DNA of 52,728 nucleotides from an uncultured Gammaproteobacteria bacterium (GTDB lineage: Bacteria > Patescibacteriota > Patescibacteriia > UBA9934 > CAZDDW01), in NCBI GenBank assembly GCA_964504365.1, contig CAZDDW010000007.1, positions 1 to 52,728 on the forward strand, read 5' to 3'. A program made the position numbers and the translations under genes. Shown here in pieces: positions 35,309 through 37,577 of the stretch (position 1 is its first letter; every line of letters starts with the position of its first letter). The notes beneath the pieces are model-generated. The model was given only the letters and a program-made list of their open reading frames with translations. It was not told the origin of the DNA and ran no database searches.

Positions 35309-35337
35309 TTGACAGATTTAAACAGATGCTATATAAT
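35309..35337 (+). promoter_or_regulatory. Perfect-consensus sigma70 promoter P1
   Basis: TTGACA-17-TATAAT. Confidence 0.85.
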
Positions 35338-35343
35338 TCTGCT

Positions 35344-35767
35344 CGCGACTCGCAATTTGCGAGGCCTGAGGCAGGTTTCTGGGTAAAATGGAGCTTCGGA
35401 TGTGCTGACGAAAGTCATAAAACTTAGTCCTGATAGATAACGGGTAAAATCAGGCTGCTCTTCGGAGCATATGGAGCCAGTTGTTTCGACGGCTGGTCCA
35501 CGAGGATCCCGATAGGCCGACCGGGTAACACCGGTGCAACCTGACCGACGGAACGTGCCGGCGATTCAACCCCGCTTCTGAGGCGGGTACGCTGCGGCAC
35601 TACAACCGACGATCTCCGAACTCCTACTGGTGTCTCCAAGCACCAGTACCCAGAAACCTGCCACCATATAGGGAGGGTACCCAATAAAGCAACGTTACCC
35701 ATGCGTTAGCCTAAGGTATTACCTCCCGACCAAACTTCTCGACCCCACCTCAGGGGTCTTTTTCTTT
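35344..35767 (+). ncRNA. Candidate structured ncRNA 1 (~420 nt)
   Basis: P1 to terminator; perfect 16-bp helix 35370-35385/35647-35662; GAAA, UUCG and GUAAC hairpins; no + strand ORF in the track. Confidence 0.65.
35740..35767 (+). terminator. Intrinsic terminator T1
   Basis: GACCCC/GGGGTC + T-run; identical 28-mer at 36124-36151. Confidence 0.85.
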
Positions 35768-35770
35768 AGC

Positions 35771-35799
35771 TTGACCAAAAACGCGTCGCTTGCTAGGAT
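35771..35799 (+). promoter_or_regulatory. sigma70 promoter P2
   Basis: TTGACC-17-TAGGAT with extended -10 TG. Confidence 0.7.
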
Positions 35800-35805
35800 A
35801 TCCGT

Positions 35806-36151
35806 GATGTTTAGGAAGAAACACCAGAGGATGGTGCTTTAGGGAATGTCAGGTACCTGAAGTAGCCGGTGCTATGCGCTCTTTGAGCGCGGTGACAATG
35901 AGCTGTGCGTCTTGGCGGAGCGAATACGCGAAGAAACCGAAACACACAAAGCGCTTGTCATGCGAGGAAATAAGCCAACCTCATCCATCCCCCTGACTAC
36001 GTTGGGAAATCCTCTCTGATAACGAACCTTGAACGTCAGTGGGCTCCTGAACGGAGTTGCCCCCTTTCTAGGAGCCCACACACCTACTCCACCCTGAGTT
36101 TATCGAAGGGTGATTCTCATCTCCGACCCCACCTCAGGGGTCTTTTTCTTT
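35806..36151 (+). ncRNA. Candidate structured ncRNA 2 (~345 nt)
   Basis: P2 to terminator; pairings AGAGGAT/ATCCTCT, GTCAGG/CCTGAC, GCGCTC/GAGCGC, TGACAA/TTGTCA, GTGGGCTCCT/AGGAGCCCAC. Confidence 0.6.
36124..36151 (+). terminator. Intrinsic terminator T2 (identical to T1)
   Basis: Exact 28-nt repeat of 35740-35767. Confidence 0.85.
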
Positions 36152-36167
36152 CTGTGGATAACTAGAT

Positions 36168-36196
36168 TTGACAAGGTTTTAACTCTTGTGTAGACT
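36168..36196 (+). promoter_or_regulatory. sigma70 promoter P3
   Basis: TTGACA-17-TAGACT; TGTGGATAA (DnaA-box consensus) at 36153-36161. Confidence 0.75.
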
Positions 36197-36202
36197 GCGC
36201 AT

Positions 36203-37287
36203 TACCGCTACGGAAGCTTCCGGACGGAAAGGACGGCCCGGCAACGGGTCAACACTGCATTCCAAACGTCAAACTGGGATGTATAAGATGCGCCGCGCGC
36301 GTGTCGCCACCTCATGGCAGCAAGCCACGTACCGCAGCTGGACCGGTCATACCGGATAAGGCTCGACCCTCTCTGAGGGGTGAATGGTCGTTAAGGCCAT
36401 CAGGCTGAACGTCAAGATGAAAGCCAGTGCATGACCGCCTGGCACGAGGGAGTGGAAAACCCTCAATGACCATACTCGATCTGGATAACTTGTTCTTGAG
36501 ACACGGAGTCGAGACCTGGAGCTAAGGCGCGAGCCAAGGCAAAGGGTCCACGAGACCTGTCACTGGAATAAGCCCAGCAGAGCCACCAAGGCAAGTCCTG
36601 GAGGCGAGAGTATGTCACGCTGCGGTTTACGGACGAGCCATCGTGCACCGTAGCAGCGTGAGTGGCTCCGGTAGAACCTGAGCCAAACGAGAACTTCGTG
36701 ATCGCCTGCGGACCGGATCCGACAAGGATCGTTCACAGGATCGAAGAGCTCACGGTGACCAAGGTCACCAACAGTCCTTTCTAGGAAGAACCGAAGCATG
36801 TGCGAGGTTAGGAAACCGAAACGACAGTTTCAGAAACGACCAAAGGAAGCTCGAGGTAACACTTGAGAAACCGTTGGACAAAGTAAGGAACCAGAAACAG
36901 AGGTAGCTTGACTCCGGAACTAGTGGTAAAGAACCGCACCAACGGACCGTCGCAAGACGGAAACGAAGTGGTACAGACACGAGGTAACACTCGTAGACGT
37001 AAAAGGAACTAGCCATTGCATCAACTCCTCACAAGGGAGATGAACCGGTCCGCACAAGGTGCGGATTCTCGAGAGAGGGTAACGTAGCTAGCACTCACGA
37101 TCGAACGATGTCCTCGGACACCGACCACACGATCAACTTCAACTGCGCAAGCAGAGGAAGGAGAGCAACAACGGCAACGTAGCCAATCCAGCTCAGCTGG
37201 ACTCCCGAGTCTCCGTCACCAACCAACTCCAGCGACTTGATCGCTGACACTCATCAAGGCCTCACCACGTGGGGCCTTCTTTATTTT
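36203..37287 (+). ncRNA. Candidate large structured ncRNA 3 (~1.07 kb), class unassigned
   Basis: No + strand ORF in the track; many short hairpins with GNRA/GUAAC/ACAA loops, A-rich linkers, long-range helices; bounded by promoter and terminator. Confidence 0.75.
37256..37287 (+). terminator. Intrinsic terminator T3
   Basis: AAGGCCTCAC/GTGGGGCCTT + T-rich tail; second hairpin at 37290-37326. Confidence 0.8.
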
Positions 37288-37338
37288 ACAAAAACTGCGA
37301 TTAAGCTTATTGCGGTTTTTCTTTTTGCCTTAAAAGGG

Positions 37339-37367
37339 TTGACAAAAGCGTAAAAACGTGCTATTAT
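37339..37367 (+). promoter_or_regulatory. sigma70 promoter P4
   Basis: TTGACA-17-TATTAT with extended -10 TG. Confidence 0.8.
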
Positions 37368-37373
37368 TCCCGG

Positions 37374-37577
37374 TTCCTTCACACTTTTTCACGGACCGTT
37401 TAACCTGGATCGATTCTGCTAAGTAAGGGCAATATCGCCCTGAAAAGCAACTGGAGACCTTACATGTCCCAGACTGTGACCACCCCTGCTGGCCCTGGTT
37501 GCCTGGCCTCCCGCTTGGGACCCGCTGGCTTCATCCGAGACCAGATGATCCCCGCAGTGCAATGCTGCGGGTTCTTT
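37374..37577 (+). ncRNA. Candidate small RNA 4 (~200 nt), or short-ORF mRNA
   Basis: P4 to the CCCGCAG/CTGCGGG terminator at 37551-37577; a 45-codon ORF (37464-37601, GGAG upstream) runs through the terminator. Confidence 0.45.

What the first reader, a model, noticed from the sequence alone, without database searches (positions are those of the whole stretch)
35309..37577. Cluster of four independently promoted and terminated non-coding RNA units
Seen: four TTGAC(A/C)-17-(-10) promoters (35309, 35771, 36168, 37339). Each is followed by 200-1070 nt of hairpin-rich sequence with no + strand ORF in the track, then an intrinsic terminator. P2-P4 each start within tens of bases of the preceding terminator, and T1 and T2 are an identical 28-mer. 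Spending 2.3 kb on non-coding units is striking in an otherwise gene-dense genome. None shows rRNA, tRNA, RNase P, SRP or tmRNA signatures that I can recognise. Inference: a multi-RNA system, possibly acting with the two divergently transcribed unknown proteins. This is my best candidate for an undescribed system.
Basis: partly seen in the sequence, partly recalled or inferred. Interest (0 to 1): 0.92.

Follow-up and report, generated by a model that had tools for sequence, protein, structure and literature searches.

The report
Tandem cluster of novel structured RNAs
A tiny marine bacterium fills its longest gene-free stretch with three, perhaps four, separately promoted and tightly folded RNAs that match no known RNA family; one is about 1,080 bases long and turns up in seawater RNA libraries, and their function is unknown.

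Summary
Window 35309-37612 carries four σ70-type promoters, each followed by an intrinsic terminator on the + strand, and T1 and T2 are an identical 28-mer. It is the longest stretch without an ORF of 90 aa or more in the 1.07-Mb genome. No long ORF opens under three genetic codes, and there is no 3-base periodicity, whereas the neighbouring genes score 15-47.

Units 1-3 fold far better than dinucleotide shuffles (z about -5.5, -3.2 and -6). Nothing reaches an Rfam gathering score. RNase P RNA and tmRNA lie elsewhere in the genome.

Unit 3 (36204-37288) is assembled in two seawater metatranscriptome runs; one contig starts at the predicted start site. It has one homologue, in a congeneric Ca. 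Uhrbacteria MAG. That copy keeps the promoter and the 5' and 3' cores, with eight compensatory pairs in helices predicted independently in both species. It sits beside different proteins and lacks units 1 and 2.

So units 1-3 are most likely independent genes for new structured RNAs on a high-GC variable island. A single "multi-RNA system" acting with the two ORFan proteins is not supported. Unit 4 is weakly folded and may encode a 45-aa peptide. Function is inferred only.

The parts
32689..34056 (-). ORFan protein of 455 aa (P0004) on the high-GC island
   Evidence: Strong period-3 signal of 18.6. No Pfam, PADLOC or PHROG family. Only itself among 5.8 bn proteins. No ESM Atlas lead.
34115..35203 (-). 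ORFan protein of 362 aa (P0003), divergent from unit 1; possible HTH regulator
   Evidence: Period-3 signal of 14.9. Only itself. One 113-aa partial relative in 1.84 bn representatives (E 4e-7). ESM lead to HTH_3 / Sigma70_r2 clusters, score 0.91 with a low shared-feature count, so a lead only. The AF2 model is unusable, pLDDT 44.
35309..35337 (+). Promoter P1, TTGACA-17-TATAAT
   Evidence: 12/12 match. One of 6 such sites in the genome. It overlaps a weak - strand promoter-like site at 35322-35295.
35344..35767 (+). Unit 1 RNA, about 424 nt including terminator T1 (stem 35741-35758)
   Evidence: MFE -169.4 kcal/mol, z -6.05 and -5.46. A perfect 16-bp closing helix, 35370-35385 with 35647-35662 (I1). 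No periodicity. The 3' 72 nt match mmgR/suhB at 26.7 bits, below the gathering score of 41.
35771..35799 (+). Promoter P2, TTGACC-17-TAGGAT with TG
   Evidence: 9/12 match.
35806..36151 (+). Unit 2 RNA, about 346 nt including terminator T2 (stem 36125-36142, 28-mer identical to T1)
   Evidence: z -3.71 and -3.20. Identical terminator 28-mer (D3). Holds an internal hairpin at 36089-36115 that serves as a gene terminator in other genomes of the order.
36153..36161 (-). TTATCCACA (DnaA-box consensus) just upstream of the -35 box of P3
   Evidence: Conserved at the same place in G002. 28 copies in the genome against about 8 expected.
36168..36196 (+). Promoter P3, TTGACA-17-TAGACT
   Evidence: 10/12 match. 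The promoter and its flanks are nearly identical in G002.
36204..37288 (+). Unit 3 RNA, about 1,085 nt including terminator T3 (stem 37256-37278)
   Evidence: Metatranscriptome contigs cover 36204-37115 (X7) and 36220-37150 (X8) with 0 differences. z -6.2 and -6.1 for the middle and 3' thirds, -1.6 for the first third. Homologue in G002. U-poor: 29% A, 16% U.
36492..36569 (+). Unit 3 conserved long hairpin
   Evidence: Predicted independently in G000 and G002 at the same alignment columns. Two compensatory and four one-sided changes.
37005..37043 (+). Unit 3 conserved hairpins of the 3' core, including a CACAAG loop
   Evidence: with two compensatory pairs. It lies in the best-conserved block.
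37058..37220 (+). Unit 3 long-range helix (37058-37075 with 37203-37220) closing a variable insert, and the hairpin 37187-37201
   Evidence: The helix is predicted in both species, although the enclosed insert is about 150 nt in G000 and about 55 nt in G002. Hairpin 37187-37201 has four compensatory pairs.
37339..37367 (+). Promoter P4, TTGACA-17-TATTAT with TG
   Evidence: 11/12 match. Similar promoter strings occur in 9 other genomes of the order, a generic similarity.
37374..37612 (+). Unit 4: a short transcript with a 45-aa ORF (37464-37601) and two terminator-like hairpins (37551-37571, 37587-37608)
   Evidence: Weak fold, z -1.52 and -1.75. GGAG lies 8 nt before the ATG. The peptide has no relatives. 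No homology to the hydrolase gene that holds this position in G001 and G002.

Best explanation
Units 1, 2 and 3 are three independent genes for structured non-coding RNAs of families not yet described. They sit head to tail on a high-GC, strain-variable island between secDF and a LOG-family gene in a roughly 1-Mb marine Ca. Uhrbacteria (Patescibacteria) genome.

Shown: each unit has its own near-consensus σ70 promoter and its own intrinsic terminator. None shows any sign of coding. Each folds far more stably than shuffled sequence. Unit 3, about 1.08 kb, is present in seawater RNA libraries. A sister species keeps its promoter, its 5' and 3' cores and a few helices with compensatory changes, around poorly conserved inner parts that include an insert of very different length.

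Inferred: unit 3 works as a stable, abundant structural or scaffolding RNA, either with proteins encoded elsewhere or as an RNA-only assembly, in the manner of OLE, ROOL and GOLLD. It is probably not an antisense regulator, a leader or an mRNA. Units 1 and 2 are separate accessory RNAs of the same island. The C-rich stretch before unit 1's terminator (CCUCCC) could act as an anti-Shine-Dalgarno seed. Unit 4 is probably a short mRNA or an ordinary small RNA and not part of a common machine.
For: Promoters and terminators alternate on the + strand, and P1 is one of 6 perfect sites in the genome. There are no long ORFs under three codes. Period-3 power is 1.0-1.6, equal to shuffles, against 15-47 in the neighbouring genes.

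Fold z on the + strand is -5.5 to -6.05 for U1, -3.2 to -3.7 for U2, and -6.2 and -6.1 for two thirds of U3. Coding controls give -1.2 to +1.3, including a piece of an ORFan with the same GC content. For U3 the + strand is clearly favoured over the - strand. U1 has a perfect 16-bp closing helix 261 nt apart.

Two RNA-seq runs of one study each assembled a 0.9-kb contig identical to U3. One starts at 36204, which is 8 nt after the -10 box.

The G002 homologue shares 461 identical columns of 1130. Its promoter, 5' 45 nt and 3' core are conserved. Of the pairs predicted independently in both species, 56 coincide: 42 are unchanged, 6 changed on one side and 8 on both sides.

In every genome of the family examined (3 of 3: G001, G002, G003) the same secDF-LOG interval holds a promoter-and-terminator-bounded, strongly folded unit (z -4.1 to -8.6).

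The island has GC 0.47-0.57, against about 0.38-0.46 in the flanks.
Against: Units 1 and 2 have no homologue anywhere searched, so they have no comparative support. Their folds are equally good on the - strand, so their strand rests on the promoters and terminators alone.

The global covariation test on the two-sequence U3 alignment is not significant. Changed pairs remain canonical in 32% of cases, against 30-40% with slid partners. The 56 shared pairs lie mostly in conserved sequence, where similar folds are expected anyway. The first third of U3 folds only weakly (z -1.6).

Contigs cannot prove a transcript's ends, strand or level, and an RNA library can contain DNA. The GUAACA hexaloop hairpins shared by U1 and U3 are not kept in G002's U3.

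No evidence bears directly on function. The comparison with OLE, ROOL and GOLLD is by analogy only.
Confidence: 0.6

Rival explanations
1. One reading: the four RNAs and the two upstream ORFan proteins form one co-functioning multi-RNA/protein system.
For: They are adjacent on one high-GC island. The promoter of the 362-aa ORFan overlaps P1 back to back. That protein has a weak ESM lead to HTH and sigma-like regulators. U1 and U3 share three hairpins with the loop GUAACA; GGTAACAC occurs 3 times in 2.3 kb, against 25 times on both strands of 1.07 Mb.
Against: G002 has U3 without U1 or U2, and with unrelated neighbours: proteins of 718, 347 and 139 aa, a J-domain protein and a coiled-coil protein. 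G001, of the same genus, has none of U1-U3. The units share no sequence apart from the U1/U2 terminator. The shared loop motif is not conserved in G002.
Confidence: 0.12
2. The RNAs belong to an integrated mobile element or prophage remnant and serve its maintenance, replication control or anti-phage defence, for example as RNA antitoxins or decoys.
For: Foreign GC content. ORFan neighbours with real coding signal. Content of the locus varies between close relatives. The ESM lead for P0003 points to clusters that are largely viral. A weak integrase-like ORF lies 2 kb away at 39659-40087 (Pfam E 0.0067, below cut-off).
Against: No PADLOC or PHROG family for any neighbour apart from chance coiled-coil hits. 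No match in 50,697 phage or 72,556 plasmid records. The only IMG/VR hits are chance 16-mers. No repeats, tandem arrays, reverse transcriptase or Cas genes. No flanking direct repeats were seen.
Confidence: 0.18
3. Non-functional relic: foreign high-GC DNA that happens to be transcribed from strong promoters, with stable folds as a by-product.
For: Very narrow distribution: U3 in 1 of 161 other genomes of the order and 0 of 400 in the class sample, and U1 and U2 nowhere. The global covariation test is null.
Against: Dinucleotide-controlled z-scores of -5 to -6 are not seen in a coding piece of the same island. U3's promoter, ends and several helices persist between two species whose inner parts have diverged to the level of noise. 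Four near-consensus promoters each paired with a terminator are unlikely in junk. A 1-Mb streamlined genome keeps this as its longest ORF-free stretch.
Confidence: 0.08
4. Hidden coding: the units are mRNAs for small proteins or are read in another genetic code. This is most plausible for unit 4.
For: Unit 4 has a 45-aa ORF with GGAG 8 nt upstream and folds weakly. In G001 and G002 this position holds a promoter followed by a hydrolase gene.
Against: No periodicity in any unit. No long ORF under table 4 or TAG=Q. The neighbouring genes read normally under table 11. The 45-aa peptide has no relative, and its ORF runs through the first terminator hairpin.
Confidence: 0.05

Closest known systems
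OLE RNA (large, highly expressed structured RNA of extremophilic Firmicutes; recalled knowledge, and named in the abstract of PMC12286853 seen in the listing)
   Same: A long, lineage-restricted, strongly folded non-coding RNA with its own expression signals, present in RNA pools, and of no obvious function from sequence.
   Different: No Rfam match of any kind to U1-U3. A different phylum. About 1.08 kb, against roughly 0.6 kb (recalled). No partner-protein genes were recognised beside it.
GOLLD and ROOL RNAs (giant ornate RNAs, often on prophages; recalled, and in the abstract seen)
   Same: Very large structured RNAs on variable or foreign DNA, with conserved cores and variable peripheral parts.
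   Different: No covariance-model match. No tRNA or phage genes nearby. No relatives in phage or viral collections. Oligomeric assembly was not tested.
mmgR / suhB (alpha-r8) sRNA family, RF00519
   Same: The last 72 nt of unit 1 (35702-35773) have the same layout: a small hairpin, a single-stranded CCUCCC stretch, and a terminator. The analogous unit of G001 gives a similar weak match.
   Different: Scores are 26.7 and 24.9 bits against a gathering score of 41. The match is only the tail of a 424-nt RNA, and the CCUCCC is paired with GGGAGG in the predicted fold.
Tandem sRNA gene clusters (for example paralogous sRNA pairs in proteobacteria; recalled)
   Same: Several independently promoted and terminated RNA genes head to tail.
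   Different: Here the units are 0.35-1.1 kb and unrelated in sequence except for one shared terminator.

Membership tests
Housekeeping RNAs (rRNA, tRNA, RNase P RNA, tmRNA, SRP RNA, 6S RNA) | Match to the family's Rfam covariance model at or above the gathering score | tested here: not met
   0 matches in the window at gathering score and none among the E<=10 matches. No tRNA or tmRNA by ARAGORN. RNase P RNA is at C1:28081-28492 (160 bits) and tmRNA at C15:5355-5769 (115 bits). SRP and 6S models match nowhere in the genome.
Described large bacterial ncRNAs (OLE, GOLLD, ROOL, HEARO, raiA) | Match to the Rfam model. That these five are among the 4227 families scanned is recalled, not shown by a call. 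| tested here: not met
   No such family appears even at E<=10, with lax filters on each unit alone, nor on the G001, G002 and G003 loci at E<=1.
mmgR/suhB sRNA (RF00519) | Score of at least 41 bits | tested here: not met
   26.7 bits, E 0.003-0.009, on 35702-35773.
Independent bacterial ncRNA gene (generic) | Own σ70-type promoter and own intrinsic terminator, with no ORF between them | tested here: met
   for U1-U3. U4 meets the promoter and terminator criteria but holds a 45-aa ORF.
Independent bacterial ncRNA gene (generic) | Transcript detected | tested here: inconclusive
   U3 is in contigs of two RNA-seq runs of one study. Contigs give no strand, ends or level. For U1, U2 and U4 there is no information.
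Structured RNA family (generic) | Covarying base pairs across homologues | tested here: inconclusive
   Only two U3 sequences exist. There are 8 compensatory and 6 one-sided changes in 56 pairs shared by independent folds, but the global test against slid partners is null. U1 and U2 have no homologues.
Type III toxin-antitoxin RNA or CRISPR array | Tandem direct repeats | tested here: not met
   TRF finds 0 arrays in 35200-37700. There are no repeat families apart from the two terminators.
Retron / DRT-type ncRNA | Adjacent reverse transcriptase gene | tested here: not met
   No RT domain in the 10 neighbouring proteins scanned against Pfam, and no PADLOC family.

The most novel reading that the evidence does not exclude
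Unit 3, possibly together with units 1 and 2, is a new class of giant ornate RNA specific to marine Uhrbacteria. It would be an abundant RNA-only or RNA-protein machine carried on an exchangeable island of an ultra-small, host-dependent bacterium, with a conserved core that closes rapidly evolving inserts. Its role would not be covered by any known RNA family, for example a structural assembly or an agent of interaction with the host cell or with phages.
Probability: 0.2. Interest if true: 0.85.

Novelty: new variant of a known kind. Interest (0 to 1): 0.62.

Why it matters
Large structured RNAs without a known function are rare, and each one found so far (OLE, GOLLD, ROOL, raiA) has opened new biology. 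None is described from the Candidate Phyla Radiation, as far as my two literature searches show (listings and abstracts only).

Here a 1-Mb genome, which has little room for waste, gives its longest ORF-free stretch to three such RNAs behind some of its best promoters. One of them is found in environmental RNA libraries.

If unit 3 is a functional 1-kb RNA, it is a tractable target for in vitro transcription, chemical probing and cryo-EM. It would also be a marker for accessory RNA biology in uncultured episymbionts. The narrow distribution, two species so far, limits comparative proof and general reach.

Tried and rejected
Homologue searches
- BLAST of 35300-37620 against 40 relatives and against all 161 other genomes of the order. 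Only G002 has real U3 matches. The other 20 genomes give pieces of 21-59 nt: a hairpin of unit 2 in 7 genomes, promoter-like strings in 9, and 4 others.
- The 96-nt U3 core against 400 class genomes gave 0 matches.
- Phages and plasmids in 'distant' mode gave no match.
- Pattern scans: genome contigs found only G002. Metagenome contigs gave one hit, L018, which on reading is a chance match inside a high-GC coding contig. Viral contigs gave 0, 7, 15 and 0 hits; the 22 hits extend to at most 22 nt, which is chance.

RNA coverage
- No RNA-run contig covers units 1, 2 or 4 or the flanking genes, apart from one 157-nt piece at 33116-33272.
- Loose ends of DNA contigs at 32565 and 37585 looked at first like island borders. 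Compared with the window, the first loose end resembles a diverged version of the window sequence just before 32565. The second was judged only by eye against the sequence. Both were set aside as probably strain variants.

The neighbouring proteins
- Pfam at E<=10, PADLOC and PHROGs gave nothing.
- AF2 on P0003 gave pLDDT 44, so no fold search was run.
- The ESM Atlas gave only a weak HTH/sigma lead for P0003 and nothing for P0004.
- Full HMMER gave one 113-aa partial relative.

Links between the units
- Pairwise local alignments find only the U1/U2 terminator and U3 with G002's U3.
- RNAduplex between the units, and against neighbouring 5' regions, gave z near 0. Unrestricted duplexes span the whole molecules, so this test is uninformative.
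- k-mer counts show no CsrB-like GGA enrichment: 34 against 24 expected in G000, but 16 against 19 in G002.

Other checks
- Unit 4 as a remnant of the hydrolase gene of G001 and G002: no similarity.
- SRP RNA or 6S RNA as the identity of a unit: no model match, and the genome has no Ffh to bind an SRP RNA.
- A conserved RNA upstream of secDF in other families: a crude ORF-and-promoter regex over 20 loci showed none. This was a rough look, not a proper search.
- Literature: four searches. I saw only listings and the starts of abstracts and read no paper. Supplements are closed.
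Full report
What is there. The window is a whole 52,728-base contig (C7) of a 1,065,924-base, 19-contig genome, 98.9% complete. Its only close relative with a title is a Candidatus Uhrbacteria MAG. The DNA runs that hold the stretch are marine and seawater metagenomes.

Between secDF (30379-32385, - strand; Pfam SecDF domains plus a PPIC rotamase domain) and a LOG-family gene (37622-38329, - strand) lies an island. 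Its GC content is 0.47-0.57, against about 0.38-0.46 in the flanks. The island holds two - strand ORFs, of 455 and 362 aa as called in public collections. After them come 2.3 kb without any long ORF.

The observation. They lie at 35309 (12/12), 35771 (9/12), 36168 (10/12) and 37339 (11/12). It also confirms a + strand terminator after each: stems at 35741-58, 36125-42, 37256-78 and 37551-71. In 34500-38500 there are 10 promoter-like sites against 3.0 +/- 2.0 in shuffles, and 11 terminator-like sites against 4.0 +/- 1.9. T1 and T2 are an identical 28-mer. P1 is one of six perfect TTGACA-N16-18-TATAAT sites in the genome. Several of the others stand before tRNA genes.

The stretch is truly ORF-poor. 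Under table 11 it has no ORF of 93 aa or more; the longest are a 92-aa one on the - strand inside unit 1 and a 57-aa one on the + strand. Nothing spans a unit under table 4 or TAG=Q. C7:35703-37621 is the longest of the 102 gaps of 250 nt or more without an ORF of 90 aa or more in the genome. It is longer than the 16S rRNA gap.

Coding or not. Fourier power at period 3, relative to the median, is 27.7 for secDF, 46.5 for secA, and 18.6 and 14.9 for the two ORFans. For U1, U2, U3 and U4 it is 1.4, 1.0, 1.6 and 1.3, indistinguishable from shuffles. So the two ORFans are real genes, and the four units carry no trace of coding, not even of a recently decayed gene.

Structure. Against dinucleotide shuffles, U1 folds with z -6.05 or -5.46. 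U2 gives -3.71 and -3.20. The three thirds of U3 give -1.62, -6.16 and -6.08. U4 gives -1.52 and -1.75. Coding controls, including a piece of the 362-aa ORFan with the same GC content, give -1.2 to +1.3.

For U3 the + strand is clearly favoured: the - strand gives +0.2, -3.8 and -2.1. For U1 and U2 the two strands fold equally well, so their orientation rests on the promoters and terminators. U1 is closed by a perfect 16-bp helix whose arms lie 261 nt apart (I1). U1 and U3 share three hairpins with the loop GUAACA. GGTAACAC occurs at 35524, 36855 and 36983, and 25 times in all on both strands of the genome. The motif is not kept in the G002 copy of U3.

Known families. Nothing in the window reaches an Rfam gathering score, and ARAGORN finds no tRNA or tmRNA. 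With E<=10 and lax filters on each unit, only noise appears. The best match is mmgR/suhB on the last 72 nt of U1, at 26.7 bits against a gathering score of 41. RNase P RNA and tmRNA are found elsewhere in the genome. There are no tandem repeats and no repeat families beyond the terminator.

Expression. Of eight runs that hold the stretch, two are metatranscriptomes of one study. Laid on 32400-38400, X7 gives a 912-nt contig at 36204-37115 and X8 a 931-nt contig at 36220-37150, both without a single difference. Position 36204 is an A, 8 nt after the TAGACT -10 box of P3. Contigs cannot prove ends, strand or level, and an RNA library can hold DNA. I therefore take this as presence of U3 in RNA libraries, consistent with the predicted start, and no more.

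Relatives. BLAST of the 2.3 kb finds a real homologue only in G002, of the same genus. That is 1 of 40 relatives and 1 of 161 other genomes of the order. The 96-nt core finds 0 of 400 class genomes. Phage, plasmid, viral and metagenome collections give nothing beyond chance.

In G002 the U3 gene is split over two contig ends that overlap by 141 identical bases, giving a 936-nt RNA. The conserved parts are a TTATCCACA box, the promoter, the first 45 nt or so, a hairpin region (36492-36569), an 80-nt 3' core, and the tail with its hairpin and terminator. The inner parts are at noise level, and one insert is about 150 nt in G000 against about 55 nt in G002.

A global test gives no support for covariation. 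For G000's MFE pairs, changed pairs remain canonical in G002 in 57 of 179 cases (32%), against 30-40% when the partner is slid by 1-3 columns. This is expected where the alignment is unreliable, but it is a null result.

MFE folds computed independently for the two species share 56 pairs at identical alignment columns. Of these, 42 are unchanged, 6 changed on one side and 8 on both. One is a long-range helix (37058-37075 with 37203-37220) that closes the variable insert. Another is a hairpin (37187-37201) in which four pairs are exchanged. This is modest support for a conserved core structure.

The locus in the family. In all three other genomes of the family, the interval between secDF and the LOG gene holds a near-consensus promoter, a GC-rich ORF-free unit and a terminator:
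- G001 has a 260-nt unit (z -4.95), followed by an alpha/beta-hydrolase-like gene.
- G002 has four unknown proteins, a J-domain protein, a 192-nt unit (z -8.59), a coiled-coil protein, U3 and the hydrolase gene.
- G003 has a - strand gene of unchecked identity, a 198-nt unit (z -4.09) and a small gene.
 These short units are not alignable with each other or with U1, U2 or U4. In 20 genomes of other families a crude look showed no such unit upstream of secDF. The site is thus a variable region that repeatedly carries structured RNA genes, with content that differs between species.

The neighbours. The two ORFans find only themselves among 5.8 billion proteins. They have no Pfam, PADLOC or PHROG family. 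The 362-aa protein has one 113-aa partial relative in 1.84 billion representatives. It also has a weak ESM Atlas lead to Cro/C1-type HTH and sigma-70 region 2 clusters, many of them viral. Its single-sequence model is too poor to use. Its promoter region overlaps P1 back to back, which would fit a regulator, but this is inference. They share nothing with G002's island proteins; BLASTP gives E>=0.28.

Interpretation. The simplest reading that fits all of this is as follows. U1, U2 and U3 are independent genes for structured non-coding RNAs of undescribed families, on an accessory island. U3 is a large RNA, about 1.08 kb, U-poor (16% U), and present in RNA libraries. It has conserved 5' and 3' cores around fast-evolving inner domains. 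That anatomy is what is seen in large scaffold-like RNAs such as OLE, ROOL and GOLLD (recalled; abstract of PMC12286853 seen). I therefore favour a structural or scaffolding role, but no result here tests function. Membership in those families was tested through Rfam and is not met.

U3 occurs in G002 without U1, U2 or those proteins.

Unit 4 differs from the others. It folds weakly, carries a 45-aa ORF behind a GGAG, and has no relatives. It occupies the place where the congeners have a promoter plus a hydrolase gene, to which it shows no similarity.

Novelty and score. These are new RNA families of a known general kind, orphan structured ncRNAs. Two features are unusual: three unrelated ones in tandem, and a 1-kb member in a CPR genome. 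The restriction to one genus and the lack of strong covariation keep the score moderate.

Noticed in passing
whole genome G000 and samples of its order, class and phylum: No signal-recognition-particle pathway is detectable. In G000 there is no small or large SRP RNA, no Ffh M domain (PF02978), and no SRP54-type GTPase above cut-off (PF00448). tblastn with E. coli Ffh gives a best E of 0.35, while the GrpE and TrmD controls hit. RF00169 matched in 0 of 5 relatives. A real PF00448 domain was found in 0 of 31 genomes of the order, 0 of 121 of the class and 0 of 101 of the phylum sample. The tool's 14 control genomes all ring, and the same mode finds SecA in G000. Two literature searches, listings only, showed nothing on this. 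This conflicts with the textbook universality of SRP and needs independent checking.
   Followed up: partly
window 36153-36161; G002 (L007 about 7643-7651; L030 - strand): A perfect DnaA-box consensus (TTATCCACA, read on the - strand) sits just upstream of the -35 box of the unit 3 promoter in both species. Another stands before the hydrolase promoter in G002. The 9-mer occurs 28 times in the genome against about 8 expected, often next to promoters.
   Followed up: partly
window 36089-36115 (inside unit 2); L004, L022: A hairpin with a fixed loop (CACCC-UGAGUUUAUCGAA-GGGUG) recurs almost letter for letter in 7 other genomes of the order. In the 2 loci read, it is followed by a T-run right after a protein gene, so it acts there as an intrinsic terminator. 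Conservation of a terminator's loop across families is odd.
   Followed up: partly
window 32386-32688: A 300-nt GC-rich spacer lies between the terminator of the 455-aa ORFan and the secDF start. On the - strand, a hairpin and a T-run lie immediately upstream of the secDF ATG. This could be a leader or attenuator, or a further small transcript.
   Followed up: no
G000 C1:6377-7924, C12:14375-15555, C2:94639-95788, C6:46906-47913, C1:175546-176460, C5:12268-13140 and others: Of the 20 large ORF-free gaps fetched, only the 16S rRNA gap and three tRNA clusters get an Rfam match at gathering score. The rest, up to 1.5 kb, stay unexplained.
   Followed up: no
window 30379-32385: The SecDF protein (668 aa) carries a PPIC-type peptidyl-prolyl isomerase domain at residues 240-348, inside the periplasmic part. 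The G002 ORF of 499 aa lacks it, and the G002 match is in two pieces with a TAA.
   Followed up: no
window 11787-29438: Ten consecutive - strand ORFs of similar size (480-611 aa, most of them 577-601) fill 17.6 kb. They look like a tandem paralogue array. Not examined.
   Followed up: no
window 9500-10900, 39500-41000, 46500-48000: There are further high-GC islands, at 0.49-0.59 against about 0.42. One holds an ORF (39659-40087) with a sub-threshold phage-integrase central-domain match. Another holds an M23 peptidase with MopE metal-binding repeats.
   Followed up: no
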